DNA of 64,000 bases from an uncultured Acidimicrobiaceae bacterium (GTDB lineage: Bacteria; Actinomycetota; Acidimicrobiia; Acidimicrobiales; RAAP-2): contig CAVUYE010000003.1 in NCBI GenBank assembly GCA_963745665.1, positions 466,492 through 530,491 on the forward strand. Reading direction: 5' to 3'. This document shows positions 6,554 through 23,612 of this stretch, in pieces. The notes beneath the pieces are model-generated. The model was not told where the DNA came from. It saw nothing but the letters and a program-made list of their open reading frames with translations, and did no database searches. A program made the position numbers and the translations under genes. The stretch's first letter is position 1. The number at the start of each line of letters is the position of its first letter.

Positions 6554-6589
6554 GAACGGCCACCCTATCCACCTCTCTACACTGCGACC

Positions 6590-7810: not shown

Positions 7811-7872
7811 GCGCGGCGGTACGCTGCGACGACACATGCTTGTGTGTGCTCTTACTCGCCTAGGGGGATGCC

Positions 7873-8472: not shown

Positions 8473-8491
8473 GCATGGCGCGGGCCCGGCA

Positions 8492-9376
8492 GTGCGCCTG
8501 ATCAGCTTCTCGCTCGCGGGCGGCCCGCCTCGGCCCGGTCTGATCGTCGGGGAGGAGGTCCTCGACCTCAGCGACGCCGCCGCCGGGTTGCCGGCGACCA
8601 TGGCCGAGGTGCTCGCGCTTGGCGCCGCGGGCCTGGAGCGGGTCGGCGCCGCAGCGGCCGGTCCGGCCGCCCGCCACGCCCTGGTTTCGGTCCGGCGTCA
8701 CGCGCCGGTGCCCGACCCGCCCGCCATCCTCGCCATCGGCATGAACTACCGGGCCCACGTGGCCGAAATGGGCCGAGAGCCTCCCGAGTGGCAGTACTGG
8801 TTCAACAAGCAGCGCACCTCCATCGCGGGCCCAGGCGATCCCATCGTGTTGCCATCCGTGTCCGACATGGTCGATTACGAAGGGGAGTTGGCACTCGTCA
8901 TCGGCCCGCGCTGTCAGCACGTGCCGGCGGAGCGGGCGTTCGAGGTGGTGGCGGGCTTCACCGTCATCAACGACGTGAGTACACGCGACTGGCAGTGGCG
9001 TTCTCCCACGTTCACGATGGGCAAGTCCTTCGACACGCACGCCCCGTGCGGTCCCGAGCTGGTGACCGGTGACGAGGTCGGCGATCCGGGGTCGCTGGCC
9101 ATCCGCACCTGGGTCAACGACGAGCTGCGCCAGGACTCGACCACGGCCGACCTGATCTTCGGCTGCGCCGACATGATCGAGTACCTGACCACGGCCTTCC
9201 CGCTCGAGCCCGGGACCATCCTCGCCACGGGCACGCCCGCCGGCGTCGGCGCCGGCTTCGACCCGCCGCGCTACCTGCAGGCCGGCGACACCGTGCGCAT
9301 CAGCATCGAGGGGATCGGTGAGCTGTCCAATCCCGTCGTGCAGGGCGGGCCGCCCGAGCCCGTCGGGCTCGCCTGA
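8492..9376 (+). CDS. fumarylacetoacetate hydrolase (FAH) family protein
   Basis: 294-aa ORF with FAH-domain motifs (GMNYRAH, DYEGELALVIG, INDVSTRDWQ, TGTPAGVG). Confidence 0.85.
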   Translation: MRLISFSLAGGPPRPGLIVGEEVLDLSDAAAGLPATMAEVLALGAAGLERVGAAAAGPAARHALVSVRRHAPVPDPPAILAIGMNYRAHVAEMGREPPEWQYWFNKQRTSIAGPGDPIVLPSVSDMVDYEGELALVIGPRCQHVPAERAFEVVAGFTVINDVSTRDWQWRSPTFTMGKSFDTHAPCGPELVTGDEVGDPGSLAIRTWVNDELRQDSTTADLIFGCADMIEYLTTAFPLEPGTILATGTPAGVGAGFDPPRYLQAGDTVRISIEGIGELSNPVVQGGPPEPVGLA

Positions 9377-9382
9377 ATCGCT

Positions 9383-9853
9383 TCAGCCCTCCGCCTGCGA
9401 GCTCCGCAGGCGCTCGGCCAGGCTCGCCATGACCTGCAGTGCGAAGGTCGGAGTCTCGCCGACCAGGAACAGGAACCTGTGCTTGTCGATGACGGCGATC
9501 GTCGAGTCCTCTGCGGCCACCGCGGTGGCACTGCGGGCTGAACCGTCGACGACGGCCATCTCCCCGAAGGTGTCATCGGGGCCGAGGCTGAAGGAATGGC
9601 CGTTGGTCATCTGGAGATCGACCCGGCCGGTGATGATCCCGAACATCTCCTGTCCGCTGGCGCCTTCCTCGAAGATCACCGTTCCCGCGGGAACTTCCCG
9701 TGTCTCCTTGGCGTTCTTGAACACTCCCAGAACCCTCACGCTCACAGGCTCATCCCCTTCGATCGTCCCGGCAAGACCCGTGCGGATCGCCTGGCCCTCG
9801 ATGGTAACGCCCGGCGCGACATGTTTGCCGGTGCACGGGCACCCGCCGGGCAC
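9383..9853 (-). CDS. cyclic-nucleotide-binding domain protein (no DNA-binding domain)
   Basis: cNMP-binding beta-roll (GTVIFEEGASGQEMFGIITGRVDL ... FGEMAVVDGSARSATAVA). The maximal ORF is given. Alternative GTG starts at 9745 and 9739 would leave a more normal divergent intergenic region. Confidence 0.7.
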   Translation of the reverse strand: MPGGCPCTGKHVAPGVTIEGQAIRTGLAGTIEGDEPVSVRVLGVFKNAKETREVPAGTVIFEEGASGQEMFGIITGRVDLQMTNGHSFSLGPDDTFGEMAVVDGSARSATAVAAEDSTIAVIDKHRFLFLVGETPTFALQVMASLAERLRSSQAEG

Positions 9854-9867
9854 GGCACAATAGAGGG

Positions 9868-10203
9868 GTGACGGACACCCAGCCTGAGTTGAGCGACGCC
9901 GAACGGGCCGATCGTCTGGGCAAGCTTCAGGGGATCATGGACCTGATGCGCCCGGCCGTGCAGGCCGACGGCGGTGACCTCGTCCTCGTCCGGGCCGATG
10001 TCGAGGCCGGGGTGATCGAGGTCCAGCTCCAAGGAGCCTGCAGCTCCTGCGCCATCAGCTCTGCGACCCTGTCCGGCGGGGTGGAGCGGATCCTGCGGGA
10101 GCGCCTGCCCTGGGTCACCGAGGTCGTGGGTGGCATCGACGACTCCCTCAGCGTCGACGAGAGCGCCGCGTTGGGCTCGGGCGGCTACGTCCCGAGCTTC
10201 TGA
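9868..10203 (+). CDS. NifU-like (Nfu C-terminal domain) Fe-S assembly protein
   Basis: 111-aa ORF with the motifs ADGGDLVLV ... GACSSC. Confidence 0.8.
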   Translation: MTDTQPELSDAERADRLGKLQGIMDLMRPAVQADGGDLVLVRADVEAGVIEVQLQGACSSCAISSATLSGGVERILRERLPWVTEVVGGIDDSLSVDESAALGSGGYVPSF

Positions 10204-10263
10204 GCCGCTCCCTCGCCTCCTTCTGACCCGAACGGTGGTCCGGGCTGCGCCGAGCTGATTGAT

Positions 10264-10286
10264 TAGTTAGCTCAACTAACTATACT
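10264..10286 (+). promoter_or_regulatory. AT-rich inverted repeat plus -10-like TATACT directly upstream of marR-type gene
   Basis: TAGTTAG (10264-10270) and CTAACTA (10276-10282) form a 7-bp inverted repeat with a 5-nt spacer. TATACT (10281-10286) ends 7 nt before ATG 10293. Confidence 0.35.
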
Positions 10287-10292
10287 GGAGGC

Positions 10293-10733
10293 ATGGCATC
10301 ACAGCGCGCCCAGGTGACCAACGAAGAGGTCTCCAGCCGCCTGCGCATCGCCGTGAACCGGCTGCAGCGCCGCCTTCGCCAGGAGTCGCTCGGCGGCCTC
10401 TCCCCGGCGCAGGCCTCTGCGCTTGGTTCGGTGGGCCGGCACGGGAGCCCCACCCTTGGTGAGCTGGCCGCCCTCGAACAGGTACAGCCTCCGACCATCA
10501 CGAGGATCGTCGCCAGCCTGACCGATGCGGGGATGGTGACCCGGGTGGCCGATCCCAACGACCGGCGCAGCGCCCGGGTCCGCATCACGCCGGCCGGCGA
10601 GCGCGCCCTTGAGCAGATGCGCACCCGCAAGAACGCCTTTTTGCTGCGCCGTCTCGACGACCTCACCCCCGAAGAGCAGCAGCGCGCCACCGATTTGGTC
10701 GAATTGCTCGAGCAGCTCTTGGTGGAACCGTGA
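10293..10733 (+). CDS. MarR family transcriptional regulator
   Basis: 146-aa ORF with a winged-HTH pattern (LSPAQASALGSVGRHGSPTLGELAALEQVQPPTITRIVASL...DRRSARV). It overlaps the MFS gene by 4 nt. Confidence 0.85.
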   Translation: MASQRAQVTNEEVSSRLRIAVNRLQRRLRQESLGGLSPAQASALGSVGRHGSPTLGELAALEQVQPPTITRIVASLTDAGMVTRVADPNDRRSARVRITPAGERALEQMRTRKNAFLLRRLDDLTPEEQQRATDLVELLEQLLVEP

Positions 10734-12061
10734 GGCGCCGCGTGCGCGCCGCGGGCCGCCGCACTTTTCGCGCCATTGCAGTCCGCAACTACCGCCTGTA
10801 CTTCACGGGCCAGGTGATCTCGGTGTCCGGGACGTGGATGCAGACGGTGGCGCAGGCCTACCTGATCCTCTTCCCGCTCCACGGCACAGGACTGGACGTC
10901 GCCATCGCCACCAGCCTCCAGTTCCTGCCCCTGCTGCTGTTCGGTCCCTTCGGCGGCCTGGTCGCCGACCGGGTCGACAAGCGCAAGGTGCTGTATGCCA
11001 CGCAGTCCACGGCAGGAGTTCTGGCCCTGATTCTGGGCACCTTGGTGGTGCTGCACTCGGCCGACCTGTGGGAGGTCTACGTGCTGGCGGCCGGCCTCGG
11101 GTTCGTCAACCTGTTCGACAACCCGGCGCGCCAGACCTTCGTCTCCGAGATGGTCGGGCTCGACCTGCTGCCCAATGCGGTCAGCCTCAACAGCGTCCTG
11201 ATGAACTCGGCTCGGGTGATCGGGCCGGCCATCGGCGGTGTGCTCATCGTCGTGTTCGGCGTCGCCGCCTGCTTCTACATCAATGCTGCGTCCTACGCCG
11301 CGGTGATCGTCGCGCTTGCCATGATGCGGGCCGCCGAGCTCTACCGCCGCCCCGGCGTGGTGCGGGCCAAGGGTCAGGTCCGGGAGGGCCTGCGCTATGT
11401 CTGGGCCACGCCCGACCTGAAGGTTCCGCTCATCTCCATGGCCGTGGTCGGCGTCTTCGCCTTCAACTTCACCGTGACTCTGCCGCTCCTGGCCAAGTTC
11501 ACCTTCCATGGCGGCGCCGGCCTCTACAGCTGGCTCCTGGCCGCCATGGGCGTGGGAGCGGTTGCCGGCGGTCTCGCCACGGCCTTCAGGAGCCGGCCGT
11601 CCACCCGGCTGCTGGCCGGCATCGGCCTGGTCTTCGGTGTCGCGATCCTGGCGGTGGCACTCGCTCCGACCGAGACCTGGGCCATCGTTCTGCTCGTCCC
11701 GATGGGAGCGGCGAGCATCTCGTTCGTCGCCACCAACAACGCCACCCTGCAGTTGCGGGCCGACCCCGCCATGCGGGGCCGGGTCATGTCACTCAACGCG
11801 ATCGCCTTCCTGGGCAGCACGCCGATCGGGGCGCCGCTCCTCGGCTACCTCAGCGACGCCACGAACCCGCGTGTCGCCCTTTCCGTCGGCGCGGTGGCGA
11901 CGCTCGTGGCCAGCGTCCCACTCTTCGTGCTCGGCGCCCGCCAGCGCCGCCAGGGCACCGAAGGCTTGGTCATGGGTCCTTCCGGCCCGGCATCCACGAA
12001 CGTGGTCGCCCTCCCGCTCCCGGCGACCGACGATGGCGAAGCAGTGAGCCGCAGTAGCTGA
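10730..12061 (+). CDS. MFS transporter (EntS/MFS_3-like efflux type)
   Basis: 443-aa ORF with about 12 hydrophobic helices and the motif GGLVADRVDKRKV after TM2. It is coupled to marR. Confidence 0.85.
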   Translation: MRRRVRAAGRRTFRAIAVRNYRLYFTGQVISVSGTWMQTVAQAYLILFPLHGTGLDVAIATSLQFLPLLLFGPFGGLVADRVDKRKVLYATQSTAGVLALILGTLVVLHSADLWEVYVLAAGLGFVNLFDNPARQTFVSEMVGLDLLPNAVSLNSVLMNSARVIGPAIGGVLIVVFGVAACFYINAASYAAVIVALAMMRAAELYRRPGVVRAKGQVREGLRYVWATPDLKVPLISMAVVGVFAFNFTVTLPLLAKFTFHGGAGLYSWLLAAMGVGAVAGGLATAFRSRPSTRLLAGIGLVFGVAILAVALAPTETWAIVLLVPMGAASISFVATNNATLQLRADPAMRGRVMSLNAIAFLGSTPIGAPLLGYLSDATNPRVALSVGAVATLVASVPLFVLGARQRRQGTEGLVMGPSGPASTNVVALPLPATDDGEAVSRSS

Positions 12062-12075
12062 GCAACGGAGGCCGC

Positions 12076-12495
12076 TCAGGCCGGGTGCACCAGTTCCTGG
12101 GCGACCGGCGACATCACGGCACCGAACTCGGCGACGAGTGACAGCAAGAGGTCGTCCACCGAGATGATCCCGGCGATCTCCTTGTCCTCGAGCACCGGAA
12201 GGCGCCTGGCCCCGGCTGTCTTGAACACCGTGAACGCGTCGAAGACGTCAGCCGAGCCCTGAATGGTGCGGGGGCCTGCAGTCATGACTGACTCCACTGG
12301 GGTCGAACAGGGCTTTCCCTCACCAACGCCGCGCACGGTGATGTCGCGGTCGGTCACGATCCCCACCAGACGACCACCGTCGACCACCAGGAGCGAGCCG
12401 ATGCCGTGGCTCCCCATTAGCCGCCCGGCCTCCTCGAGGGTGCATCCCGGAGGGACGGACACCGGCGCCGTCCGCAGGCACTCTCTCACCAGCAT
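12076..12495 (-). CDS. CBS-pair domain protein
   Basis: 139-aa ORF with two CBS repeats (HGIGSLLVVDGGRLVGIVTDRDI; RRLPVLEDKEIAGIISVDDL). Confidence 0.85.
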   Translation of the reverse strand: MLVRECLRTAPVSVPPGCTLEEAGRLMGSHGIGSLLVVDGGRLVGIVTDRDITVRGVGEGKPCSTPVESVMTAGPRTIQGSADVFDAFTVFKTAGARRLPVLEDKEIAGIISVDDLLLSLVAEFGAVMSPVAQELVHPA

Positions 12496-12532
12496 GGCTG
12501 TTCACCCCGTTCGCTGTGTCCGACCAGTCGTC

Positions 12533-13807
12533 CTACCCCCGCCCACAGTAGGGGAAACGGCGGTCTTGGCCCGTGCTCAGGTGGGCTTCGGCTCCTTGGG
12601 CGAGACCGAGCACACGCTCTCCCACGATGTTGCGCTGGATCTCGGCCGAGCCGCCCCAGATGGTCTCCGACCGCGAGAAGAAGAAGAGCGACTGCAGGTT
12701 GCTGACGGGGTAGCTCGCCTTGGCCCGGCGGGCTCCGGGCAGCAGCGTGTCCCCGCCGTCGTCGCCCTGCAGGATCTGACCGTCCATGCCCATGATGTCG
12801 ATCGCCAGCAGCATTGTCTCCTGGTGCGCTTCGGACCAGAACATCTTGTTGCACGCACCGAGCGCGGCCGTCGTGTGGGTGCCGTTGAGGACGTCGGTGA
12901 GCGTGCGGTAGCCGTTGATCTGCATGATCTTGATGTTCGACCACGAACGCGCCAGGCGCTGGCGGATCGAGGGATCATGGGAGCGGCCTCGCCGACGCGC
13001 CTCGCCCAGGATCTCGTCGAACTCCTTTTGGAAGCGCCGGTGGCCGGTGGTCGACGAGGTGCCCCGCTCGAAGCCGAGCGTCGTCATGGCGACCTTCCAT
13101 CCGTTGTTCACGCCGCCGATGACGTTGTCCTTCGGGCACCGCACGTTGGTGAAGAAGACCTCGTTGAACTCCGCCGAGCCGTCCACCTGTTCGATGGGCC
13201 GCACCTCCACGCCGGGCTGCTTCATGGGAACGAGGAGGTAGGAGATGCCGGCATGCTTCGGGGCGTCGGGGTCGGTGCGGGCAAGGAGGAAGATGTAGTC
13301 GGCGTACTGGGCCTGGGTCGTCCACACCTTCTGCCCGTTGACCACCCACTCGTCGCCGTCGAGCTCGGCCCGCGTCTTGAGGCTGGCCAGGTCCGAGCCG
13401 GCGTCGGGCTCGCTGAAGCCCTGGCACCACGCGATCTCGCCTTTCAAGATCCCAGGGATGAACTTGCTTCTTCTGTTCCTCGGTGCCCCACTGCAGGATC
13501 GTCGGGCCGACAAGGGTGTCGCCGAAGAAGTCGGCGCGCAAGGGTGCACCGGCGCGGGCGAACTCCTCGTTGAGCACGACCTGTTGCAGGAGGCTCAGGC
13601 CCTTGCCGCCGTATTCCGTCGGCCAGCTGGCGCAGATCCACTCACCCCCGTAGAGCTTGGCCGTCCACTCTTCGTTGAAGGCCTTGCGCTCGTCGGGTGT
13701 CATGGACGAAGCCGGGCTCGCCCCAGCGGTCGGGCAGATTCTGCTTCAGCCATGCCGGCGATCTCCGCCCTGAACTCGTCGGCTTCGGGCGGGTAGGCGA
13801 GGTCCAT
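12533..13807 (-). pseudogene. acyl-CoA dehydrogenase (FadE type), interrupted by three frameshifts as given
   Basis: The protein reads across four frames: MDLAYPPEADEFRAEIAG | WLKQNLPDRWGEPGFV | MTPDERKAFNEEW...GPTILQWGTEEQKK | KFIPGILKGEIAWCQGFSEPDAGSDLASL...GGSAEIQRNIVGERVLGL. The junctions lie near 13751, 13702 and 13468. Confidence 0.75.
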
Positions 13808-14148
13808 GGAGGGCACGGTACCCGTCCCCTTGCCCCCTCTGCGACCGATTGCGATCCGAATGCCCGGTGGGCAGCCCGGTAAGCTCTCGGCGGGAAACAT
13901 TGCGTCATCCCTCCCGCACAGGGACACGGAGAAGGAGGTGCGGCCATGTCGAGGGGCGAACCCCCCAGTAGAAAAGCCGGCGGATGCCACACTCCGTGCC
14001 GGCGCTGAGGCTCGCCCGACGCGTGCCCTGAGTCGGGAACACGCGGGAGCGCACAGAGGCAGACGCCGTTCGCTGATCCTCCGGTGCCGGTCGCGGCCAC
14101 CGGACATCCGATCCGAACCCATCTGAGGAAGCCACGGGAGGGAGCTCC

Positions 14149-15559
14149 ATGGCCACGCCACCGTCGACGAGCGCGCCGAGCCGCTCACGTTTGATCCCCG
14201 GTCGTTCCCGCGATCCGGAACGCCAACCCCACCAGCGCCGTCGGCGCACGCGTCGCATCCTCGCGTCCGAAGGCGTCTTCGACTCCATCGTGTCGCTGGC
14301 CGGCCTTCTGGGTCGACCGGTGCGGAACCAGACCGGCCAGGAGATCGGCCGGCTCGACGACGTCGTGGCCCGCTGGGCCGATGGGCAGATGTACCCGCCG
14401 GTCAGCGGTCTGGTCATCCGGGTCGGTCGACGTCTCGCCTTCGTCCCGGCCTCCGCCATCGACCGGATCGGCCATGCCGAGGTGGTCCTCCGCTCGGCCC
14501 GTCTCGACCTGCGCGACGTCATCCGCCGTTCCGGCGAGGTGCTGCTGGCCAAGGACGTCCTCGACCATCAGCTGGTCGACGTCGAGGGGGTCCAGGTCAT
14601 TCGCGCCGCCGACCTGTACTTGGCCGAGGTGATCGGCCGCATCCGGCTGGTGGGTGCCGATGTCTCCAACGCCACGCTCCTGCGCCGGCTCGGCCCGCGT
14701 CGGTGGCGCCCGCGCCCGACGCCCGATCGTGTGATCGACTGGGCCGCCATTCAGCCCTTCGCCGAGTCGGGCATGGATGCCGGCGGCGCGGCAACCCAGG
14801 TGCGCCTGAAGACGACCAACGAGGGTCTGCACCGGCTGAGACCCGGGGAGCTGGCCGACCTGCTGGAGGACCTGCGGCGCGATGAGCGGCGCGAGCTCCT
14901 GGCCGCACTGGGCCCCGACGAGGCCGCGGATGCCCTCGAGGAGATGCAGCCCGAGGACCTCGAGCAGCTCCTGCGGGAGTCGGACCCGGTCGAGGCGGCG
15001 CGGCTCCTGGCCGCCATGGAGCCGGACGAGGCGGTCGACGCGTTGCGAGACCTACCGGTGGCGCTGCGGGGCGAGGTCTTGCGTCACATCCCGGCCGTCG
15101 ACCGCGCTCGCGCTCCGCGAGTTGCTCGGCTACGAGGAGGACGAGGCGGGCGGCATCATGACGACCGCATTGGTCACGGCCAAGTCGGGAGAGAAGGTGA
15201 AGAAGGTCGTCGACCGCCTCTCCGAGGCCCGGGCGCACGGCGCCGACCTCGATGCGGTGGCGGTGGTCGACGACGACGGCCGGCTGCTCGATGACGTCTC
15301 CGTGCTCGATGTCCTGCTCGCGTTGCGAGCGTCGACCGATACACGCATGTCCGCGCTCGTCGGCGACGAGGACGTGGTGACGGTGCGCCCGCACACGTCG
15401 GCCGACGAAGCGGCCGGGCAGCTGATCGAAGCGCGACGCCACTCGATGGTCGTGGTCGACGACGAGGGACGCCCCATCGGGCGCATCCTGGCCGACGACC
15501 TCCTTGACGCGCTCGTCCCAACGAAGGGCCGCTTCCACTTTCCGCGCCTTCTGTCATGA
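14149..15559 (+). pseudogene. PRC-barrel + MgtE N-domain + CBS-pair protein without membrane domain; one frameshift as given
   Basis: ORF 14149..15294 joins ORF 14882..15559 near 15105 (...VLRHIPAVDRA | LALRELLGYEEDEAGGIMTT...). It has MgtE-N helical repeats and two CBS motifs, and ends ...FHFPRLLS with no TM helices. GGAGGGAG lies upstream of ATG 14149. Confidence 0.75.
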
Positions 15560-16797
15560 GGGTGCGGTCCATGAGGCGGTGGTGGATCTATGTCGCCGCC
15601 GCCGGGCCGGGGCTCATCGCCGCGGCCGCCGGCAACGACGCGGGCGGCATCGTCACCTACTCGTCCGCGGGTGCCCAATTCGTCTACCGCACGCTCTTCC
15701 TGATGGTGCTCATCACGGTGGCCTACGTGATCGTCCAGGAAATGGTGGCCCGTCTGGCCACCTACACCGGCAAAGGTCTGGCTGCGCTCATCAGAGAGGA
15801 ATTCGACCTCCGCCTGACGGCGTTCGCCATCATCGCCTTCGCCATCGCCAACATCGGCCTCATGGTGACCGAGTTCGGCGGCATCGCCACATCATTCGAG
15901 TTGTTCAGCGTCTCGCGCTACATCTCGGTGCCGATCGCCGCGGTGGCCATCTGGTCGCTGGTGCTCTTCGGTTCCTACCGCTACGCCGAGCGCATCTTTC
16001 TCCTGCTGACCCTCGTGTTCGTCGCCTACCCCATTGCCGCGGTTCTCGCCCACCCCAACTGGCACCAGGTCGCGGCCAATACCGTGTGGCCTCACTTCGT
16101 CGGCTCGAAATCGTTTCTCCTCCTCTCCGTTGCCCTGATCGGCACCACGATCACGCCCTACATCCAGTTGTACGAGGCGGGTGCGGTTGTCGACAAGGGT
16201 GTCAAGCCGGAGGACTACCGCTTTCAACGTGTCGACGCGATCACCGGCGCGGTCCTCGCCGCAATCGTGGCGATGTCGATCATCATCGCCACGGGGGCCA
16301 CCATCGGAGGCACCGGGCCCCTCACGTCGGCCACCACGGCTGCAGAGGGGCTCAAGCCCGTCGCCGGCGCCTTCGCCACCACGCTCTTTGGCATCGGGCT
16401 GCTCGGCGCCTCGGCTCTGGCTGCCGCGGTCGTCCCCTTGTCGACGTCGTACGCCGTGGCCGAAGCCATCGGCGTCGAGCGCTCGGTCTCGTCGAGCTTC
16501 CGCCAGGCTCCAGTCTTCCTCGGCATCTTCACCTTCCAGATCGTCATTGGCGCCGCCGTGGTGCTTGTCCCGGGCAACCTCATCACGCTCATCTTGAACA
16601 CCCAGGTGCTCGAGGGGGTCATCACGCCGATGACGCTGATCCTGATCCTGATCCTGGCCAACCGGCGTTCCTTGCTCGGGTCGGCGGCCAACGGGCCGGT
16701 GGCCCGCTGGGTGGGGGGATTGGCCATCGTCTCGGTCGCCATCGTGGCGGCCGTCTACGTCGTGTTGACGGTCCTCGGCTGGTTCGGCCTCGCCTGA
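15556..16797 (+). CDS. NRAMP (SLC11) family transporter, non-canonical metal site (NRMT-like)
   Basis: 413-aa ORF with an NRAMP-like start (GPGLIAAAAGNDAGGIVTYS) and about 11 TM helices. TM1 reads DAGG where DPGN is expected. TM6 reads GTTITPY where GAxxMPH is expected. An ATGA overlap links it to the upstream gene. Confidence 0.85.
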   Translation: MRVRSMRRWWIYVAAAGPGLIAAAAGNDAGGIVTYSSAGAQFVYRTLFLMVLITVAYVIVQEMVARLATYTGKGLAALIREEFDLRLTAFAIIAFAIANIGLMVTEFGGIATSFELFSVSRYISVPIAAVAIWSLVLFGSYRYAERIFLLLTLVFVAYPIAAVLAHPNWHQVAANTVWPHFVGSKSFLLLSVALIGTTITPYIQLYEAGAVVDKGVKPEDYRFQRVDAITGAVLAAIVAMSIIIATGATIGGTGPLTSATTAAEGLKPVAGAFATTLFGIGLLGASALAAAVVPLSTSYAVAEAIGVERSVSSSFRQAPVFLGIFTFQIVIGAAVVLVPGNLITLILNTQVLEGVITPMTLILILILANRRSLLGSAANGPVARWVGGLAIVSVAIVAAVYVVLTVLGWFGLA

Positions 16798-16894
16798 ACG
16801 GGGGCTCGACGGACCCCCAGGTGGACGCCGTTTGCGCAGTACCAGGGGGTTCGGGGAGGCTAGAGGGTCATGGTGAGCCGAGTCGGGACATCCG

Positions 16895-18305
16895 TTGCCT
16901 AAAACGCCTCGCCAGAAGTGGATCGAGACAAAGGAATCCTGGGAGCGCTCCCGCCACATCGAGTTGCCCGCCCCGGTGGCTGCCGCACCGCCGCAGCCTG
17001 GGGGTTTGCGTGTCGCCTTCCTGATCTATCGGGGCAATCCGCGCTGTGGGGGGCAGGGCGTCTACACGCGTCACCTGACCCGTGAGCTCCTCGCCCTGGG
17101 CCACTCCGTCGAGGTCTTCGCCGGTCCGCCGTGGCCCGAGCTCGACGAGGGGGTGGGATTCACACCGGTCCGCGGCCTCGACCTCTACCGCCAGCCGGAC
17201 CCCTTCCGTATCCCGCACCGCAGCGAGTTCACCTCCCGGGAGGACTGGACCGAGTTCGCCATCATGTGCACGGCCGGCTTCGGGGAGCCACTGGCCTATT
17301 CGTTGCGGGCCCGGCAACTCCTGGCGGAGCGCCGCGACGAATTCGATGTCGTGCACGACAACCAGTGCCTCGGCAACGGGATGCTGGGCATGGTCGAGGA
17401 CGGGTGGCCGCTCCTCACGACGTTGCACCACCCCATCACGGTCGACCGCCAGCTCGCGCTGTCGCACACGACGAATCCCTGGCAGCGGCTGACGACGCGC
17501 CGGTGGTTCGGGTTCCTCGGCATGCAGGTCCGGGTGGCGCGGGCGCTTCCCGCGGTGCTCACCGTGTCGCAGAATTCGCGTCAGGACATCGCGGCGCAGA
17601 TGGATGTCCGACCCGAACGGATGACAGTGGTCCCCGTCGGGGTCGATCAAACCGTGTTCCGGCCCTTCGACGACGTCACCCCGGTGCCGGGGCGGATCAT
17701 GGTCACCTCCAGCAGCGACGTCCCGATGAAGGGCCTGGTTCCTCTGCTTGAGGCGGTGGCCAAGTTGCGGACAGAGCGCGATGTCGAGCTGACCGTGATC
17801 GGCCGTCCCAACGAGGGGGGCCGGGTCGAGAAGGCCATCGCTCGCCTGGGGCTGGCCGACGCCGTGCACTGCGTGAGCGGTATTTCCGACGACGCGCTGG
17901 CCCACCTCTACGGCGAGGCTCAGGTGGCGGTCGTGCCCTCGCTCTACGAAGGGTTTTCGCTCCCCGCCATCGAGGCCATGTCGTGCGGCGTCGCCCTGGT
18001 CGCCACGACCGGTGGCGCGCTCCCGGAGGTCGTGGGCACCGATGGGGAGACGGGCCTGCTCGTGCCACCGGACGATCCCGGGCGCGCTGGCCGGTGCCAT
18101 CGGCCGTCTGCTCGACGACCCTGATCTGCGCGCCCGTCTCGGTGCCGCGGGACGCGAGCGGGTGGTGAGCCGGTTCACCTGGCAGGTCACGGCGGCCGGA
18201 ACGGCCGCCTGCTATCAGGCTGTCGTTGCCGGGCAGCCCCTCCCGGGAGCGCCGCCGCCCCGGGGCGGCGGACTGGAGACGTCGCTGGCCCGAGGAGCAG
18301 CCTGA
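16895..18305 (+). pseudogene. glycosyltransferase family 4 (GT-B), one frameshift as given
   Basis: ORF 16895..18124 joins ORF 18012..18305 near 18077, inside CCCGGG (...GLLVPPDDPG | ALAGAIGRLLDDPDLRARLG...). Motifs present: GGQGVYTRHL and the EX7E region YEGFSLPAIEAMSCG. The start is uncertain (TTG 16895, or in-frame 16964, 16976 or 17006). Confidence 0.75.
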
Positions 18306-19115
18306 TGCTGACGGTCGACTACGACCGGCTCGGGGTCGGACCGGGGGATCTGGTCCTCGACCTCGGGTGTGGATTCGGACGCCATGCCTTCGAGGCCGCC
18401 CGCCGGGGTGCGTCGGTGGTCGCCCTGGACGCCGGTCCCGAGGAAGTGGCGCAGGTCCGCGGCACGTTCGCCGCCATGATCGAACTGGGAGAGATCGCTC
18501 CGGGTCACCCTGCGACGGCAGTGCAGGGGGACGCCCTCGCACTGCCTTTCGCCGACGGCACCTTCGACCGGGTGATCGCGTCCGAGGTGCTCGAGCACAT
18601 TCCGGACGACTCCGCCGCCATGCGCGAGCTGTCCCGCGTCCTGCGCCCAGGCGGTGCGATGGCCGTGACGGTGCCGCGCTGCGGACCGGAGGTCATCAAC
18701 TGGGCCCTGTCGGACGAGTACCACGACACACCCGGGGGACATGTGCGCATCTACCGGCGCTCCACGCTGGAACGCCGTCTCGAGCTCGGCCGGGCTCGAG
18801 CCCACGGGCCACCACTTCGCCCATGGCCTGCACTCGCCGTACTGGTGGCTGCGTTGCCTCGTCGGTCCGTCGAACGATTCGCACCCTGCGGTCGAGGCGT
18901 ACCACAAGGTGCTGGTCTGGGACATCGTCAAGGCACCGTTCGTGACGCGCACCGCCGACCGGGTGTTGAGTCCCGTCATCGGCAAGAGCCTGGTGCTGTA
19001 CCTCACCAAGCCCGTCGCCGGCGTGGCGGACCTGACCGACTCGCGCCCCACCTTGCCCCGCGGCGTGCCCGGACGGCGCGGGCCGACCACACCGAGCCAG
19101 GGAGCTGCGGCATGA
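18305..19115 (+). pseudogene. class I SAM-dependent methyltransferase, one frameshift as given
   Basis: Motif I is VLDLGCGFGRH. ORF 18305.. joins ORF 18741..19115 near 18787 (...IYRRSTLERRLE | AGLEPTGHHFAHGLHSPYWW...). A TGATG overlap links it to the GT4 gene and an ATGA overlap links it to the next gene. Confidence 0.7.
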
Positions 19116-20246
19116 CCACTGAAGAGATCCGTTCCGACACCCTGCCGGAGGTCCCCGGCAGTCCTGACGAGTGCCGACGTGCTGGCCACCGGCCACGCCA
19201 TCGCGGCGGTGCAGCGCCACGACGGGCAGATCCCGTGGTTCGAGGGCGGCCACTGCGACCCGTGGAACCACGTCGAGGCGGCCATGGCATTGACCGTGTG
19301 CGGCCTGGTGGACGAGGCGGTCGACGCGTACCGCTGGCTGGCCCGCCGTCAGCTGCCCGACGGGAGCTGGTTCAACTACTACCAGGGCGACACGGTCAAG
19401 GATCTCCGGCTGGACACGAACGTGTGCGGCTACCTGGCGGCCGGCGCCTGGCACCATCATCTGATCACCGGCGACGTCGAGTTCCTCGGGGAGCTCTGGC
19501 CGACGATTGAGAAGGGGATCGACTTCATCCTGCGCTCACAGCAGCCCGACGGCTCTGTGCTGTGGTCCCTCGACTCGACCGGCCGGCCGGAGCGCTACGC
19601 GTTGCTCACCGGGCTCGTCTTCGATCTACCACTCCATGCGGTGCGCCGTCGCCGTCGCGGAGTGTCTGGCCAAGGACCGCCCGGACTGGGAGTTGGCGGC
19701 CGGACGACTCGGCCACGCGGTGGCCCATCACCCGGGTGCCTTCGCCCCCAAGGTCGAGTTCGCCATGGACTGGTACTACCCCATGCTGTCCGGCGCACTC
19801 GAGGGCGAGGCCGGGGCGGCGCCGCATTGCCGACGGGTGGTCGACCTTCGTCATGGAGGGTCTGGGCGTGCGCTGTGTCTCGACGGGCGACTGGGTCACG
19901 GCGGCCGAGACGGCGGAATGCGTGCTGACGCTCGACGCACTCGGCATGGACGGTCCGGCCCTGGAGCTGTTCACGGCCGGGCAGAACCTGCGGCTGCCGG
20001 ACGGGTCCTACTGGACCGGCATGGTGTTCCCCGAGCGGGAGACGTTCCCCAAGGACGAGCGGACGACGTACACGTTCGGGGCCATGGTGCTGGCGGCCGA
20101 CGCGCTCTCGAACACGCAGTCCGGCCGCCGGCTTGTTCCGGGGCGAGGGTCTGCCGGCCGCGCTCGATCTGGCCGAGCCGCACTGCGGCGACGCCATTGA
20201 GGGGTGCACCGTCGCCGATCCACCACATCGGTTCTCGCGCGGCTGA
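19112..20246 (+). pseudogene. prenyltransferase / squalene-cyclase-repeat ((alpha/alpha)6 toroid) family protein, at least three frameshifts as given
   Basis: Segments in three frames read as one protein: ...HDGQIPWFEGGHCDPWNHVEAAMAL...RRQLPDGSWFNYY...RSQQPDGSVLWSL...ERYALLTG | SSSIYHSMRCAVAVAECLAKD...DWYYPMLSGALEGEAGAA | RIADGWSTFVMEGLGVRCV...NLRLPDGSYWTGMVF.... The junctions lie near 19615, 19818 and probably 19170 and 20122. The 3' end is uncertain. Confidence 0.6.
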
Positions 20247-20306
20247 GCGCTTCACTCGGGCCGACGGCGCCCGGGCGCTGGCCGGCTCACGCCGCCCGGT
20301 GCGCTG

Positions 20307-21001
20307 TCAGCCCGGGAGCGAGATGCGGCGCAACACGCGCAGGCTGCCGCAAGCGCCGTCGTCGGTGAACTCGCCCGACTCGAGCGCGGCACGATAGAGC
20401 TCGTAGGGCGGGCGCCCCCCGTCAGCGGGGTCGGGGAAGACGTCGTGGATGGCCAGCCAGCCCCCGAGCGGCGACGTGCGGAGGACCAGCCGCGGAAGTC
20501 GGCCCACGCCGGATCCTCACCGTGCCCACCGTCGATGAAGCAGAAGGCGAGCGGGCGGTCCCACCGCGCCGCCAGCGTCGGGGAGTCACCGACGATGCCC
20601 ATGACGGACGACTCGAGACCGGCTCCGGTGATGGTCCGGCGCCAGTGCGGCAGCGTGTCGAGGCGACCGACCTCGGGATCGACCAGGTCGGCCTCGTGAT
20701 ATTCCCATCCGGGCTGGTTCTCCTCCGAGCCGCGGTGATGGTCGATGGAGAGCAGGGCAGCGCCTGTGGCCTCCGCGGCGGCCCCCAGGTAGACCGTCGA
20801 CTTCCCACACCAGGCACCGATCTCGACGAAGGTCGTGGGGGCTTGCGCCGCCATGTCAGCCCAGCCGGCCCGCAGGGCGGCGGCGAACAGCGCCTCGCCT
20901 TCGTCGTCGGGCATGAAGCCCCGCGTGTGGCGCGCCGTCTCGAAGAGGGACTGCACGCGTGCCGACCCGAGGATCTCGTTCCCGGGCACGGACCCCGCCA
21001 T
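20307..21001 (-). pseudogene. class I SAM-dependent methyltransferase (O-methyltransferase-like), one frameshift as given
   Basis: Starts at the ATG at 21001 (MAGSVPGNEIL...). Motif I is FVEIGAWCGKSTVYLG, followed by FCFIDGGH. It joins ORF 20307..20507 near 20475 (...DPAWADFRGW | ...LGGWLAIHDVFPDP...). Confidence 0.65.
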
Positions 21002-23612
21002 CAAGCGACGGATACGCCGGCGGCGCGCAGCGACTGCGGCCAGCCCGGCTCGCTCGCGGGAGCCGTACGCCACGTTCACCCCGAGGCGCTCTATCGACTG
21101 GGCCACCCGGCGGGGTCCCGACGCGATCGGATGGTCGTCGAGGAAGGCGATGGCGCCCTCGGCGAAACGGGTGTCGCCGCACAGGGCGGGAATGGACTCG
21201 ATGATGCGCGGCGGCGCGTTCTTCGGGAAGCGGTCGAGCACGCTGGTCCACTGCTCGGTCACTCGTGTCCACACCGCCTGGTTGCCGACGGGGTTGGCCA
21301 ACAGTGCGCCGATGACCGCGAACCCGTTCTGGGTGCGCACCTCCGTCATGGCCAGGTCGAACGTGCGCAGGCACAGGTCGACGTCCGGGAACCCGGCCAG
21401 GGCACCGAGTGAACGTATCTCCTCTTGCGGTGTCGACGCCGATCGGTAGCGCTCCAACGAGCGCGTCGTAGTCCCCGGTCCGCAGGAGCTGCGACACCAC
21501 CGCCAGCGTGGCCGACTCGATGTCCGGTGGGATCGGGTCGCCGGAGCCACCGCCGATCGGCGAGGCGTCGAAGCGCCGGGCCGCCTCTGCCCGCACCGCG
21601 GGGTCGGCGCCCACGGTTCCCATGAGGGTGATGGCCAGCGCCCGCAACGTCGGCGTGCGGTCGCCTTCCCCTGGGGTGGCGTCGAACCCCAGCCGGCGAT
21701 GGGTCGCCCCGAACAGCGCCGTCACGGCCCGGTGCAGTGCCTCTTGGTCCCCGTCGGGCGCGATGCGATTGGTCAGCATCAAGGCGGACGCGACGGGGGC
21801 CCACGCAGCGGGGTCGGGCTCCTCGTCCAGCCGCGCCGCGAGCTCCAGGAACTCGTGCAGCGTAGTGAGGCCGGCGAGGGTGGTCGCCCAACTGTCGGCC
21901 AACAGGTTGGCCCGCTCCAGTGGGGTGAGCTCAGAGAGGTGCTCGGCCAACGCTGTCCGGTGCGCCGCCTCGTAGCCGACCCGGAACATGCCCCAGCCGC
22001 CGGCGTTCACGACGGCGAGCCCCTGCTCGGCCTCGGCGATCGGCTCCGGCTCGGCATCGAGGACCAGATGGCGCACCGGCGCGCCGGGCGCGCCACCGGC
22101 AGGGAGCGCCCGCACCGCGAGCGGGACACGCCACTCCTTCCCGATGGACGATGTCGCGCCGGCCGGCACGGGCCCGAGCGCGAAAGGCTGTTGGCTCAGT
22201 ACGAACCCGTGCAACGAGACGAGCGGATGCCCACCCTGCAGGATGAACGTATCCATCACGTCGCGCACCGGAGCGCCGCTGGCGTCCTCGAGCGCATCCC
22301 AGAGATCGCTGGTCACCGTGTTGGCGTAGGCGTGGGCCTTGAGATAGGTCCGGACGCCGTCACGGAACACATCGGGACCGATGTGCTGCTCGAGCATGCG
22401 CAGGACCCCGCAGCCCTTTTCGTAGGTCAAGACGTCGAACATGCCCTCGGCCTCTTTGGGCGGTCCCACCGGATACTCGATTGGACGGGTGAGGTGCAGG
22501 GCGTCCACGGCCAAGGCCGCCTCGCGGGATGGCGCATAGCCGATCCAGCGGTCCCACGAAGGCCGGAAGGCGTCGACGCACAGCGTCTCCATGAAGGTGG
22601 CGAAGGCCTCGTTCAGCCAGATGCCCTCCCACCAGCCCATGGTCACGAGGTCGCCGAACCACATGTGGGCGAGCTCGTGGGCGATGACGTCGGCGACACG
22701 CTCCAGCTCGGCGCGGGCCGCCTCGTTCTTGTTCACCAGGAGTGCCGTGTCGCGGAAGGTGATGCACCCCAGGTTCTCCATCGCGCCGGCGGCGAAGTCC
22801 GGTATGGCGACGAGGTCGACCTTGTCGCCCGGATACGGGATGTTGAAGTACTCCGTGAAGAAGCGCAGGGCGAACGCGCCCACTTCCAGGGCGAATTCGG
22901 CGAGGGGGAGCTTCCCCGGGGTGCAGACCACCCGCAGTGGCACGCCGTCAACGTCGACCGCCTCGGTCATCTCGAGCTTGCCGATAACGAAGGCCACCAG
23001 GTAGGTCGACATCTTCATGGTGGGGGCGAAATGGATGCGCTGCTTGTGACCGACCTGGTCGATCGCGACAACGGGCGAGTTCGAGATGGCGTCGACGTCG
23101 GGTTCCACGATGAGGGTGATCTCGAAGACCGCCTTGCGGTCGGGCTCGTCGAAGCAGGGGAAGGATCGCCGGGCGTCGACGGATTCGAACTGGGTGGTGG
23201 CCATGGTCTGGGTCTCGCCGTCCGGTCCGGTGTACGTGGACCGGTAGAAGCCGCGCAGCTTGTCGTTGAGGGTGCCGCTGAACCGGCAGCTGATGGTGCT
23301 GGCGCCGGGGGGCAGCAGGTCGGCCGGCTGGAAGGTCACCTGCTCGAGCTCGTCGTCGAAGCTCACGCTGCACATGACGGTGACGCCGTCGGCGGTGAGG
23401 ACCTCGACGTCGCTGATCGCCAGCTCGGCCGCGTTGAGCACGATCTGGCCGACCGTCTCCAGGATGTTGACGTCGATCCGTACGGTGCCCGAGAAGGTGG
23501 CGGACGCCACGTCCGGCTCGATCTCGATGTGGTAGATCTCCGGCTCGATCGTCCGCGGCAAGCGGAAGGACTCGGAGCCGGGCGCGACGGCTGACCTGGG
23601 AGCTGAAGGCAT
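21001..23612 (-). pseudogene. pepN: aminopeptidase N (M1 family), frameshifted as given
   Basis: GAMEN and HELAHMWFGD...WLNEAF zinc motifs are present. The frame changes near 21460 (...LLRTGDYDAL | LERYRSASTPQEEIRSLGAL...). As given, the C-terminal frame runs without a stop into the next gene. A TGATG junction exists in the third frame at 20999-21003. Confidence 0.8.

What the first reader, a model, noticed from the sequence alone, without database searches (positions are those of the whole stretch)
14149..16797. Pore-less MgtE-type sensor protein translationally coupled to an NRAMP lacking the Asn/Met metal ligands
Seen in the sequence:
- The upstream gene encodes PRC-barrel-like repeats.
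- It then has the MgtE N-domain helical repeats (ELADLLEDL..., EAADALEEM, EAARLLAAM, EAVDALRDL).
- It then has a CBS pair (GGIMTT...VVDDDGRLLD...VVDDEGRPIGRI).
- It ends at ...FHFPRLLS with no transmembrane segment.
- Its stop overlaps the NRAMP start (ATGA at 15556-15559).
- In the NRAMP, the TM1 motif DPGN is DAGG (residues 28-31, nt 15637-15648).
- The TM6 motif AxxMPH is TTITPY (residues 196-201, nt 16141-16158). The Asn and Met ligands are therefore absent.

Established knowledge:
- In MgtE the N and CBS domains are the cytosolic Mg2+ sensor that gates MgtE's own pore.
- The NRAMP Met selects transition metals over Mg2+ and Ca2+.
- An NRAMP-related Mg2+ transporter clade (NRMT, characterised from Eggerthella lenta) has lost these ligands.

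Inference: this is a two-protein Mg2+ uptake system in which an MgtE-type sensor regulates an SLC11 transporter in trans. I do not know of a characterised example.

Caveat: the sensor gene carries one frameshift (about 15105) in this sequence.
Basis: partly seen in the sequence, partly recalled or inferred. Interest (0 to 1): 0.7.

Follow-up and report, generated by a model that had tools for sequence, protein, structure and literature searches.

The report
Known NRMT magnesium transporter–sensor operon
This is a two-gene operon already described in 2014, a magnesium-type NRAMP transporter preceded by a soluble MgtE-like sensor protein, but it sits behind a short, apparently undescribed proline-containing leader peptide that also precedes unrelated magnesium transporter genes in other Actinomycetota.

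Summary
- Window 14149-15559 encodes a 469-aa soluble protein: tandem PRC barrels, MgtE_N, a CBS pair and no membrane segment.
- Its stop overlaps (ATGA) the start of a 413-aa NRAMP (15556-16797) with DAGG and TTIT at the metal site.

The NRAMP belongs to the NRMT clade. It scores 339 bits against E. lenta NRMT (7QIA) and 66 bits against MntH.

The pairing is not new. Shin et al. 2014 reported that most NrmT genes follow an "MgtE cytoplasmic-domain" gene and proposed feedback regulation. That proposal remains untested. I found the partner upstream in 75 of 78 informative genome loci.

The frameshift is one extra G at 15100. Seven of 18 syntenic genes in this window carry such +1 insertions, and relatives assembled from short reads are intact. 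It is therefore most likely an assembly error, not a pseudogene.

There is no M-box. Instead, a conserved upstream ORF (13946-14008, MSRGEPPS...) precedes the operon. A DNA-pattern scan found the same SD-ATG-x(2-4)-[E/D]PPS leader upstream of corA (23 loci), full-length mgtE (2) and lone NRMT genes (6). This suggests a Mg2+-linked leader peptide that I found no paper describing.

The parts
13934..13940 (+). Shine-Dalgarno sequence GGAGGTG of the leader uORF
   Evidence: Invariant block in the upstream alignment of the window and 8 relatives. It lies 6-8 nt before the ATG in 120 metagenome matches. Coordinates checked.
13946..14008 (+). Leader uORF of 20 codons, MSRGEPPSRKAGGCHTPCRR*. Candidate regulatory leader peptide.
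   Evidence: An ORF of 18-26 codons (one of 35) with the [E/D/Q]PPS core is kept in the window and 25 Acidimicrobiia loci. ATG-to-motif spacing is 6, 9 or 12 nt in 118 of 120 pattern matches. The same leader precedes corA, mgtE and lone NRMT genes.
13958..13969 (+). Core codons GAA CCC CCC AGT (E-P-P-S) of the uORF. Contains an anti-SD-like CCNCC.
   Evidence: The only match to GAVCCYCCNAGT in the 64-kb window. Wobble positions vary while the peptide is kept. Ser is always AGT and the first Pro is never CCG or CCA.
14149..15559 (+). Gene for the soluble PRC-PRC-MgtE_N-CBS-CBS protein (469 aa after removing one base). This is the 'MgtE-like fragment' partner of NRMT.
   Evidence: Pfam. Hundreds of intact 460-476 aa homologues at 78-93% identity cover 100% of the corrected protein. 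Present upstream of NRMT in 75 of 78 informative genome loci.
14317..14490 (+). First PRC-barrel domain (about aa 57-114)
   Evidence: AlphaFold pLDDT 86-96. Foldseek match to 8qzo and other PRC barrels. Pfam PRC in 15 of 15 relatives. The window's own hit is E 0.007-0.0085.
14536..14757 (+). Second beta-barrel, PRC-like (about aa 130-203)
   Evidence: AlphaFold pLDDT 52-85. The whole N-terminal region aligns over about 195 columns with two-barrel CdpB chains. Weaker than barrel 1.
14836..15142 (+). MgtE_N helical domain (aa 230-331), acidic: 30 D/E in the 111 residues aa 222-332
   Evidence: Pfam PF03448 E 4.5e-21. pLDDT 76-93. Best PDB matches are MgtE cytosolic domains. Composition.
15100..15100 (+). 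Extra G that breaks the reading frame. Most likely an assembly error.
   Evidence: Absent from all homologues. It is the only uncompensated indel in this gene against L001. Seven of 18 syntenic genes in the window have similar +1 insertions.
15155..15517 (+). CBS pair (Bateman module), aa 336-456
   Evidence: Pfam CBS, 2 stretches, E 1.1e-16. pLDDT 76-87. PDB matches to MgtE cytosolic domains, 8gps E 6e-19 and 2yvy E 1.2e-18.
15518..15556 (+). Conserved C-terminal tail PTKGRFHFPRLLS. It replaces the MgtE plug helix and pore. Candidate docking motif (inference).
   Evidence: Invariant in 36 relatives. The pattern P..x(R)..(F/L)PR(L/F)(L/F)(S/G)-COOH recurs in most partners from Actinomycetota, Saccharimonadales and Acidobacteriota; some tails diverge.
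15556..16797 (+). NRMT-type SLC11 transporter gene (413 aa). Its ATG overlaps the sensor's TGA.
   Evidence: Pfam Nramp E 2.9e-77. EleNRMT 7qia E 4.5e-100 and 339 bits, against 66 bits for DraNramp. 44.6% identity to EleNRMT over 404 aa.
15637..15648 (+). TM1 metal-site motif D28-A-G-G31 (DxxG; Asn ligand replaced by Gly)
   Evidence: Aligns with EleNRMT D55/G58. N-D-A-G-G is conserved across 50%-identity cluster representatives.
16144..16161 (+). TM6 motif T197-T-I-T200-P-Y202 (TxxT). Met is replaced by Thr, and the first TM6b His by Tyr.
   Evidence: T197 aligns with EleNRMT T224, whose T224A mutation abolished Mg2+ transport. Consensus is GTTI[TAS]P[YW]. The NRMT signature is DxxG-TxxA/T.

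Best explanation
The locus is a bicistronic operon of an Acidimicrobiales bacterium.

Gene 2 is an NRMT, the Mg2+-transporting branch of the SLC11/NRAMP family. By analogy with E. lenta NRMT it should import Mg2+ (and Mn2+) without H+ coupling.

Gene 1 is a soluble cytoplasmic protein: two PRC barrels, the MgtE N-domain, a CBS pair and a short conserved basic-hydrophobic tail. The two genes are made in fixed proportion through a 4-nt stop/start overlap.

The most likely function of gene 1 (inferred, not shown) is a cytosolic Mg2+ sensor, possibly also sensing nucleotide. It would use the same acidic N/CBS module that closes the MgtE pore when Mg2+ is replete. Here it would act in trans, docking on the cytoplasmic face of the uncoupled transporter as a brake.

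The broken reading frame of gene 1 in this sequence is an assembly error.

Expression is probably controlled by a translated 20-codon leader ORF with an E-P-P-S core rather than by an M-box riboswitch.
For: Shown:
- Domain content and lack of a TM segment.
- NRMT membership: 339 bits to 7qia against 66 bits to MntH. D28, G31, E106, T197 and Q350 align with EleNRMT D55, G58, E133, T224 and Q379, of which D55, G58, T224 and Q379 were mutated there. Both TM6b histidines are absent, replaced by Y202 and E207.
- The clade signature DxxG-TxxA/T.
- The partner lies directly upstream on the same strand in 75 of 78 informative genome loci from Acidimicrobiia, Mycobacterium, Streptosporangiaceae, Pseudonocardiales, Saccharimonadales, Chloroflexia and Acidobacteriota. 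A 4-nt overlap is present in 23.
- A published precedent for the pairing and for the regulatory hypothesis.
- Frameshift as artefact: +1 insertions in 7 of 18 syntenic genes. Other long-read 'MFD' MAGs break this gene at other positions (L004, L032, L068). Short-read assemblies are intact.
- Link to Mg2+: the same leader uORF precedes corA, mgtE and lone NRMT genes.
Against: - No physical interaction or regulation has been shown for any member.
- In the only experiment (A. capsulatum), co-expressing the partner did not change the Mg2+ rescue. That transporter rescued a Mn2+ defect fully and a Mg2+ defect only partly.
- Four loci have partners without a CBS pair (L020, L023, L041, L043). Lone NRMT genes also exist. 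So the partner is not obligatory.
- Mg2+-ligand residues of the MgtE cytosolic domain were not checked position by position.
- The role of the PRC barrels is unexplained.
Confidence: 0.6

Rival explanations
1. The partner is not a gate of the transporter. It could be a cytosolic metal chaperone or buffer. Alternatively it could be a signalling protein that reports Mg2+/Mn2+ or nucleotide status to other targets through its PRC barrels, and is merely co-expressed with NRMT.
For: Shin et al. raise metal-chaperone activity as an alternative and saw no effect of the partner on transport rescue. The tandem PRC barrels are an extra module with no counterpart in MgtE. Their closest structural matches are protein-protein interaction modules such as CdpB1/B2 and CdvA.
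Against: Gene order is near-universal and adjacency is tight, often with a 4-nt overlap, across seven lineages. That favours a stoichiometric complex with the transporter. A conserved C-terminal tail sits exactly where MgtE continues into its pore.
Confidence: 0.2
2. The transporter's physiological substrate in this organism is Mn2+ (or another transition metal), not Mg2+. The partner would then sense that metal.
For: EleNRMT transports both Mn2+ and Mg2+. The A. capsulatum NrmT-group protein with an adjacent partner and no M-box rescued a Mn2+ defect fully and a Mg2+ defect only partly. This window also has no M-box. TM6 is TxxT rather than the TxxA of EleNRMT.
Against: T197, equivalent to the T224 needed for Mg2+ transport in EleNRMT, is kept. 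The operon's leader uORF is shared with corA and mgtE, two Mg2+ channel families. The partner is built from the Mg2+-sensing module of MgtE.
Confidence: 0.2
3. The sensor gene is a genuine pseudogene in this strain, so the NRMT works alone.
For: The sequence as given has a +1 frameshift at 15100 that would truncate the protein before the CBS pair.
Against: Both halves are otherwise intact, at 93% amino-acid identity to P0121 over 100% of the corrected protein and with no stops. At least 15 similar net insertions (14 of +1, one of +2) hit 7 of 18 neighbouring genes, including housekeeping ones. Related long-read MAGs carry breaks at different sites while short-read contigs are intact.
Confidence: 0.08

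Closest known systems
NrmT/NRMT operons with an 'MgtE cytoplasmic-domain' gene (Shin et al. 2014, PLoS Genet, PMC4072509): C. acetobutylicum Ca_c0685, A. capsulatum Acp2976/2977
   Same: Same two components in the same order, an MgtE N/CBS-like soluble protein followed by an Nramp-related transporter of the Mg2+-associated outgroup. The same regulatory hypothesis was proposed.
   Different: No M-box riboswitch here; a uORF leader is present instead. The partner carries about 200 extra N-terminal residues forming tandem PRC barrels, and the word PRC does not occur in that paper. The genes overlap by 4 nt.
EleNRMT, Eggerthella lenta (PDB 7QIA/7QIC; Ramanadane et al. 2022, eLife, PMC8806188)
   Same: Full-length homologue (E 4.5e-100; 44.6% identity). 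Identical G-N-D-A-G-G-I in TM1. T197, Q350 and E106 are equivalent to T224, Q379 and E133. The H+-pathway histidines are lost.
   Different: TM6 is TTIT, not TTIA. Both fall within the clade signature TxxA/T. No transport data exist for this protein.
MgtE Mg2+ channel (T. thermophilus, PDB 2YVX/2YVY/2ZY9)
   Same: The N-domain plus CBS pair are homologous (E about 1e-18 by sequence; Foldseek E 1e-14 to 1e-16). This is the module that senses cytosolic Mg2+ and closes the pore.
   Different: There is no plug helix and no transmembrane MgtE domain. A 13-residue conserved tail is present instead, and two PRC barrels are added at the N-terminus. It cannot be a channel itself.
Proline-codon leader peptides of enterobacterial Mg2+ transporter genes (Salmonella mgtL upstream of mgtA; a similar corA leader in E. 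coli, PMC11552253)
   Same: A short translated ORF with proline codons in the 5' leader of Mg2+ transporter genes.
   Different: Unrelated sequence and phylum. The core is a fixed [E/D]-P-P-S at codons 4-8 with unusual codon choice (GAA CCY CCN AGT). It is shared by three transporter families. No conserved attenuator structure was detected.
Tandem PRC-barrel proteins CdpB1/CdpB2 (A. fulgidus, PDB 8QZO)
   Same: Best structural match to the N-terminal 200 residues (E 3.9e-06, about 195 aligned columns).
   Different: 12-13% identity. These are archaeal cell-division proteins with no link to metal transport. The match is a fold resemblance only.

Membership tests
NRMT clade of SLC11/NRAMP | Nramp (LeuT-type) fold, Pfam PF01566 | tested here: met
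   E 2.9e-77, covering model positions 2-356 of 357.
NRMT clade of SLC11/NRAMP | TM1 DxxG instead of DxxN | tested here: met
   D28-A-G-G31, aligned to EleNRMT D55/G58.
NRMT clade of SLC11/NRAMP | TM6 TxxA/T instead of AxxM | tested here: met
   T197-T-I-T200, aligned to EleNRMT T224/A227.
NRMT clade of SLC11/NRAMP | Closer to characterised NRMT than to MntH/DMT | tested here: met
   339 bits to 7qia against 66 bits or less to DraNramp and 43 bits or less to NRAT, EcoDMT and ScaDMT. The NCBIfam MntH model scores 115.5 bits, far below its 430-bit cutoff.
NRMT clade of SLC11/NRAMP | Loss of H+-coupling residues (TM6b histidines) | tested here: met
   The His positions are Y202 and E207.
NRMT clade of SLC11/NRAMP | Mg2+ transport activity | not testable with these tools
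   Needs liposome or complementation assays.
MgtE Mg2+ channel | MgtE_N domain plus CBS pair | tested here: met
   PF03448 E 4.5e-21 and PF00571 E 1.1e-16. PDB and Foldseek matches to MgtE cytosolic domains.
MgtE Mg2+ channel | C-terminal transmembrane MgtE domain (PF01769) | tested here: not met
   No hit. The protein ends 13 residues after CBS2. Maximum hydropathy is 1.49. TIGR00400 scores 78.8 bits against a cutoff of 232.75. It is not an MgtE channel but an MgtE-like soluble fragment.
NrmT-associated MgtE-like fragment (Shin et al. 2014) | Gene for an MgtE cytoplasmic-domain homologue immediately adjacent to an NrmT-group gene | tested here: met
   4-nt overlap in the window. The arrangement is conserved in 75 of 78 informative loci.
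PRC-barrel domain (PF05239) | Profile match and PRC beta-barrel fold | tested here: met
   The window protein is sub-threshold (16.5 bits against 21.2). However, 15 of 15 relatives match, best E 4.3e-09, and the confident model matches PRC barrels. The second barrel is less certain.
M-box (ykoK) Mg2+ riboswitch regulation | RF00380 match in the 5' leader | tested here: not met
   No relevant Rfam hit at E up to 1 in 12400-17200.
mgtL-type proline leader-peptide attenuator | Short translated ORF with Pro codons in the leader of a Mg2+ transporter gene | tested here: met
   uORF at 13946-14008. The frame is kept in 118 of 120 matches. Downstream genes are the PRC-MgtE_N-CBS/NRMT operon, corA, mgtE and NRMT alone.
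mgtL-type proline leader-peptide attenuator | Alternative RNA structures or a terminator coupled to uORF translation | tested here: inconclusive
   The SD/AUG region pairs with the distal uORF more than shuffles do (mean z -1.36, n=125). But there is no RNAalifold consensus, the window leader has z -1.06, and there is no terminator consensus.
mgtL-type proline leader-peptide attenuator | Sequence homology to MgtL | not tested
   No comparison with the MgtL sequence was run. From memory MgtL reads [17 protein letters not shown], which shows no evident similarity. Any resemblance is of principle only.

The most novel reading that the evidence does not exclude
The 20-codon leader ORF (13946-14008) belongs to an undescribed class of actinobacterial cis-regulatory leader peptides. 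The pattern is SD, then ATG, then 2-4 codons, then [E/D]-P-P-S, with fixed unusual codons. It would place three unrelated Mg2+ uptake families (CorA, MgtE and NRMT with or without its sensor) under one translation-based control that responds to Mg2+ or to EF-P/proline supply. This would be a functional analogue of enterobacterial MgtL that takes the place of the M-box in these lineages.
Probability: 0.5. Interest if true: 0.75.

Novelty: new member of a known kind. Interest (0 to 1): 0.5.

Why it matters
The gene pair itself adds another, well-conserved example to an association published in 2014, whose mechanism is still open. It confirms that the partner is nearly universal across distant phyla. 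It also shows two features that any docking model must explain: tandem PRC barrels, and a conserved C-terminal tail at the point where MgtE enters the membrane.

The more useful outcome is the leader peptide. If it is a Mg2+-responsive attenuator, it gives independent genomic evidence that these NRMT operons serve Mg2+ homeostasis, as the M-box did for Clostridium. It would also define a Mg2+ regulon marker for Actinomycetota, including cultured Geodermatophilaceae in which it can be tested.

Tried and rejected
- **M-box or other known RNA family upstream:** none at E up to 1.
- **Sigma-70 promoter and intrinsic-terminator consensus scans of 13650-14250:** none.
- **Structured-leader hypothesis:** the window leader folds no better than shuffles (z -1.06). 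RNAalifold on 23 leaders gave no consensus pairs. Only a modest excess of SD-to-distal-uORF complementarity was seen. I therefore do not claim a riboswitch-like structure.
- **First AlphaFold run with a shallow alignment:** it left the N-terminal 225 residues unmodelled. A profile search of PDB sequences for the N-terminus gave only E 0.28. A deeper alignment was needed.
- **Programmed frameshifting at 15100:** rejected. There is no slippery sequence, and the extra base is absent from all homologues.
- **Apparent CBS-NRAMP fusion proteins (P0003, L002):** rejected as real fusions. P0003 carries out-of-frame stretches typical of indel errors. L002 is a long-read MAG in which both genes fall in one stop-to-stop frame.
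- **SD/anti-SD covariation between GGAGG and the CCNCC of the Pro codons:** no convincing compensatory pattern on inspection.
Full report
**1. What is in the sequence**

Window 14149-15559 (+) reads as one gene in two frames. Frame 1 runs to about 15099 and frame 2 from 15101.

After joining the frames, the 469-aa protein has these features:
- It hits Pfam MgtE_N (aa 230-332, E 4.5e-21) and two CBS domains (E 1.1e-16). It has no MgtE transmembrane domain.
- Its maximum 19-residue hydropathy is 1.49, so no membrane segment is predicted. The MgtE_N and CBS parts are strongly acidic.
- The downstream ORF, 15556-16797, is a 413-aa Nramp-family protein (E 2.9e-77).
- The TGA of the first gene overlaps the ATG of the second (ATGA, 15556-15559).
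- DAGG is at aa 28-31.

**2. The frameshift**

Homologues read ...HIPAVTALALRELLGY..., while the window has an extra G at 15100.
- Hundreds of intact 460-476 aa homologues from Acidimicrobiales match the corrected protein over 100% of its length at 78-93% identity.
- I compared the window with a syntenic short-read contig (L001, 86% DNA identity). The window carries net frameshifting insertions in 7 of 18 shared genes: acyl-CoA dehydrogenase, this gene, a glycosyltransferase, two methyltransferases, a hypothetical gene and an M1 peptidase.
- In other long-read 'MFD' MAGs the same gene is broken at different positions (L004, L032, L068) or falls in one stop-to-stop frame with the next gene (L002).
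- Two database proteins (P0238, P0003) show out-of-frame stretches at yet other sites.

This is the pattern of consensus indel errors, not of a strain-specific pseudogene.

**3. The transporter is an NRMT**
- Against all PDB sequences the best match is E. lenta NRMT (7qia: E 4.5e-100, 339 bits, residues 6-408). D. radiodurans MntH scores 66 bits, and NRAT, EcoDMT and ScaDMT score 43 bits or less. Pairwise identity to EleNRMT is 44.6%.
- Ramanadane et al. define the clade by DxxG-TxxA/T in place of DxxN-AxxM. The window has D28xxG31 and T197xxT200.
- Residues that paper highlights are conserved. D55, G58, T224 and Q379, which it mutated, correspond to D28, G31, T197 and Q350. E133 corresponds to E106. 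T224A abolished Mg2+ transport. The two TM6b histidines of H+-coupled NRAMPs are Y202 and E207 here.
- Among 59 full-length representatives of 50%-identity clusters, N-D-A-G-G and G-T-T-I-[TAS]-P-[YW] recur.

**4. The partner protein**
- Sequence and fold searches place aa 222-456 with the cytosolic domains of MgtE. By sequence, 8gps gives E 6e-19 and 2yvy gives E 1.2e-18. Foldseek gives E 1e-14 to 1e-16.
- The N-terminal 200 residues were not modelled with a shallow alignment.
- With 50 more diverse sequences, the first barrel reached pLDDT 86-96 and the second 52-85.
- The best PDB matches of that model were the two-barrel proteins CdpB1/CdpB2 (8qzo, E 3.9e-06). Other PRC barrels followed: MTH1859, the reaction-centre H subunit, CdvA and RimM.
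- The window's own Pfam PRC hit is sub-threshold. All 15 diverse N-terminal homologues match PRC, best E 4.3e-09.
- Directly after CBS2, where MgtE continues with its plug helix and pore, the protein ends in a 13-residue tail, PTKGRFHFPRLLS. The tail is invariant among close relatives. It is recognisable as ...(F/L)PR(L/F)(L/F)(S/G) in most partners from Saccharimonadales and Acidobacteriota, though some tails diverge.
- I infer, without test, that the tail is a contact element.

**5. Is the pairing conserved, and is it new?**

A scan of one genome per GTDB species returned 80 loci encoding close NRMT relatives.
- 78 of them have upstream DNA.
- 75 of those carry the partner on the same strand directly upstream. 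The lineages are Acidimicrobiia, Mycobacterium, Streptosporangiaceae, Pseudonocardiales, Saccharimonadales, Chloroflexia and Acidobacteriota.
- 23 loci have the 4-nt A/G/TTGA overlap. Acidobacteriota have gaps of about 50-250 nt.

Variants:
- Four loci have partners without a CBS pair (L020, L023, L041, L043).
- Two loci have no partner (L062, L063).
- One locus has a full-length MgtE downstream of the NRMT instead (L077).

The association is published. Shin et al. [quoted passage not shown] They speculate that it provides cytoplasmic feedback regulation or chaperone activity. They also report that co-expressing A. capsulatum Acp2976 with Acp2977 did not improve Mg2+ rescue, and that Acp2977 rescued a Mn2+ defect. 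The word PRC does not occur in that paper. I found no later paper characterising the partner.

**6. Regulation: a leader peptide, noticed while looking for an M-box**

No Rfam family matches 12400-17200 at E up to 1.

*In the window and its relatives.* Aligning the 400 nt upstream of the sensor gene in the window and eight relatives showed one strongly conserved block: GGAGGTG, then 6 nt, then an ATG opening a 19-20 codon ORF (window 13946-14008, MSRGEPPSRKAGGCHTPCRR).
- The window and 25 Acidimicrobiia loci, whose NRMT proteins are about 60-88% identical to the window's, carry an ORF with [E/D/Q]-P-P-S at codons 4-8. It is 18-26 codons long in all but one (35 in L033).
- None of the loci from the other phyla does.
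- The core codons are GA[A>G,C] CC[C/T] CC[C/G/A] AGT. Wobble positions vary while the peptide is kept. Ser is always the rare AGT and the first Pro is never CCG or CCA. There is therefore also a nucleotide-level constraint.

*In metagenomes.* I scanned metagenome contigs with GGAGGTG-N6-8-ATG-N6-12-GAVCCYCCNAGT.
- The ATG-to-motif spacing was 6, 9 or 12 nt in 118 of the 120. This supports a reading frame.
- 107 matches had a downstream ORF of at least 60 aa.
- Of these, 56 precede the PRC-MgtE_N-CBS/NRMT operon, 23 precede corA (Pfam CorA E 1e-56 to 1e-64), 6 precede a lone NRMT and 2 precede a full-length mgtE.
- The remaining 20 are too short, unclear or evident chance hits.
- One of the CorA proteins is identical to a CorA of Geodermatophilus sp. 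Leaf369, and its cluster includes Klenkia species. So the element also occurs in cultured Actinomycetes.
- The NRMT-operon hits are expected by homology with the query pattern. The corA and mgtE hits are independent.

*RNA structure.* Evidence for an attenuator structure is weak.
- The SD/AUG region pairs with the distal uORF more than shuffled controls do (mean z -1.36, n = 125). In the window the arms are CACGGAG 13925-13931 and CTCCGTG 13992-13998.
- There is no alignment-wide consensus structure. The window leader has z -1.06. No terminator-like site was found.

*Precedent.* The closest precedent in principle is the proline-codon leader peptide MgtL of Salmonella mgtA, together with the similar corA leader of E. 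coli. I found no paper describing the actinobacterial element. The M-box-associated uORF2 of mycobacteria is a different peptide.

**7. Most likely mechanism**

Shown:
- the operon structure;
- NRMT identity;
- the MgtE-type N/CBS module without a pore;
- the PRC barrels;
- the conserved adjacency of the two genes;
- a conserved translated leader shared with other Mg2+ transporter genes.

Inferred:
- The NRMT imports Mg2+ (and Mn2+) down the membrane potential.
- The partner binds Mg2+, and perhaps nucleotide, in its acidic N/CBS module, and then restrains the transporter from the cytoplasmic side. This supplies in trans the brake that MgtE and CorA carry in cis.
- Ribosome progress through the E-P-P-S codons tunes operon expression to Mg2+ or translation status.

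**8. Verdict**

The interpretation re-derives a published but still unproven hypothesis. The pair is a new member of a known kind. The leader peptide is the part that may be new and is directly testable.

Noticed in passing
window 13934-14008 (+); also L001-L044 and L082-L201: Conserved SD plus a 20-codon uORF with an [E/D]PPS core, upstream of the sensor/NRMT operon. The same leader lies upstream of corA (23 loci), full-length mgtE (2) and lone NRMT genes (6) in metagenome contigs. One carrier is a Geodermatophilus/Klenkia CorA. No description was found in the paper library.
   Followed up: partly
window 12600-21500: At least 15 uncompensated net insertions (14 of +1, one of +2) relative to a syntenic short-read contig. 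They break 7 of 18 shared genes, for example acyl-CoA dehydrogenase 12533-13703 (-) and glycosyltransferase 16895-18305 (+). There are none in 5282-12016. The pattern looks like long-read consensus errors, so any 'pseudogene' call in this window needs caution.
   Followed up: yes
window 15518-15556 (+); partners in L003-L081: The C-terminal tail of the partner, (L)xP..x(R)..(F/L)PR(L/F)(L/F)(S/G)-COOH, recurs in most partners from Actinomycetota, Saccharimonadales and Acidobacteriota. It lies exactly where MgtE would enter the membrane. Possible docking motif.
   Followed up: partly
window 12076-12495 (-): A stand-alone 139-aa CBS-pair protein lies two genes upstream on the opposite strand. 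It is syntenic in L001 (7920-8339). Any relation to the operon is unknown.
   Followed up: no
L020, L023, L041, L043: In these loci (two labelled Mycobacterium, two Acidimicrobiia MAGs) the gene upstream of NRMT is about 310 aa. It has the PRC region and a weak or undetected MgtE_N, and no CBS pair. The 4-nt overlap is kept. This is a shortened partner variant.
   Followed up: no
L077 1724-4412; L062, L063: L077 is a Chloroflexia locus with the NRMT followed by a full-length MgtE (with pore domain) and no upstream partner. L062 and L063 are Acidobacteriota loci with no partner within 4 kb.
   Followed up: no
L110 (EPPS uORF MPTSEPPSPGR, then an ORF about 235 nt downstream): One EPPS leader precedes a small membrane protein (...FLGFQTILVVIWIGLNI...PYPFILLNLAFSTQAAYAAPFILLAQNRQ...) rather than a known Mg2+ transporter. 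From memory it resembles DUF1003, but this was not scanned. It is a candidate additional member of the regulon.
   Followed up: no
P0003 (577 aa) and L002 2513-5242: Apparent CBS-NRAMP or whole partner-NRAMP fusion ORFs in databases. P0003 contains out-of-frame stretches, and both are most likely indel artefacts of long-read MAGs. They are not real fusions.
   Followed up: partly
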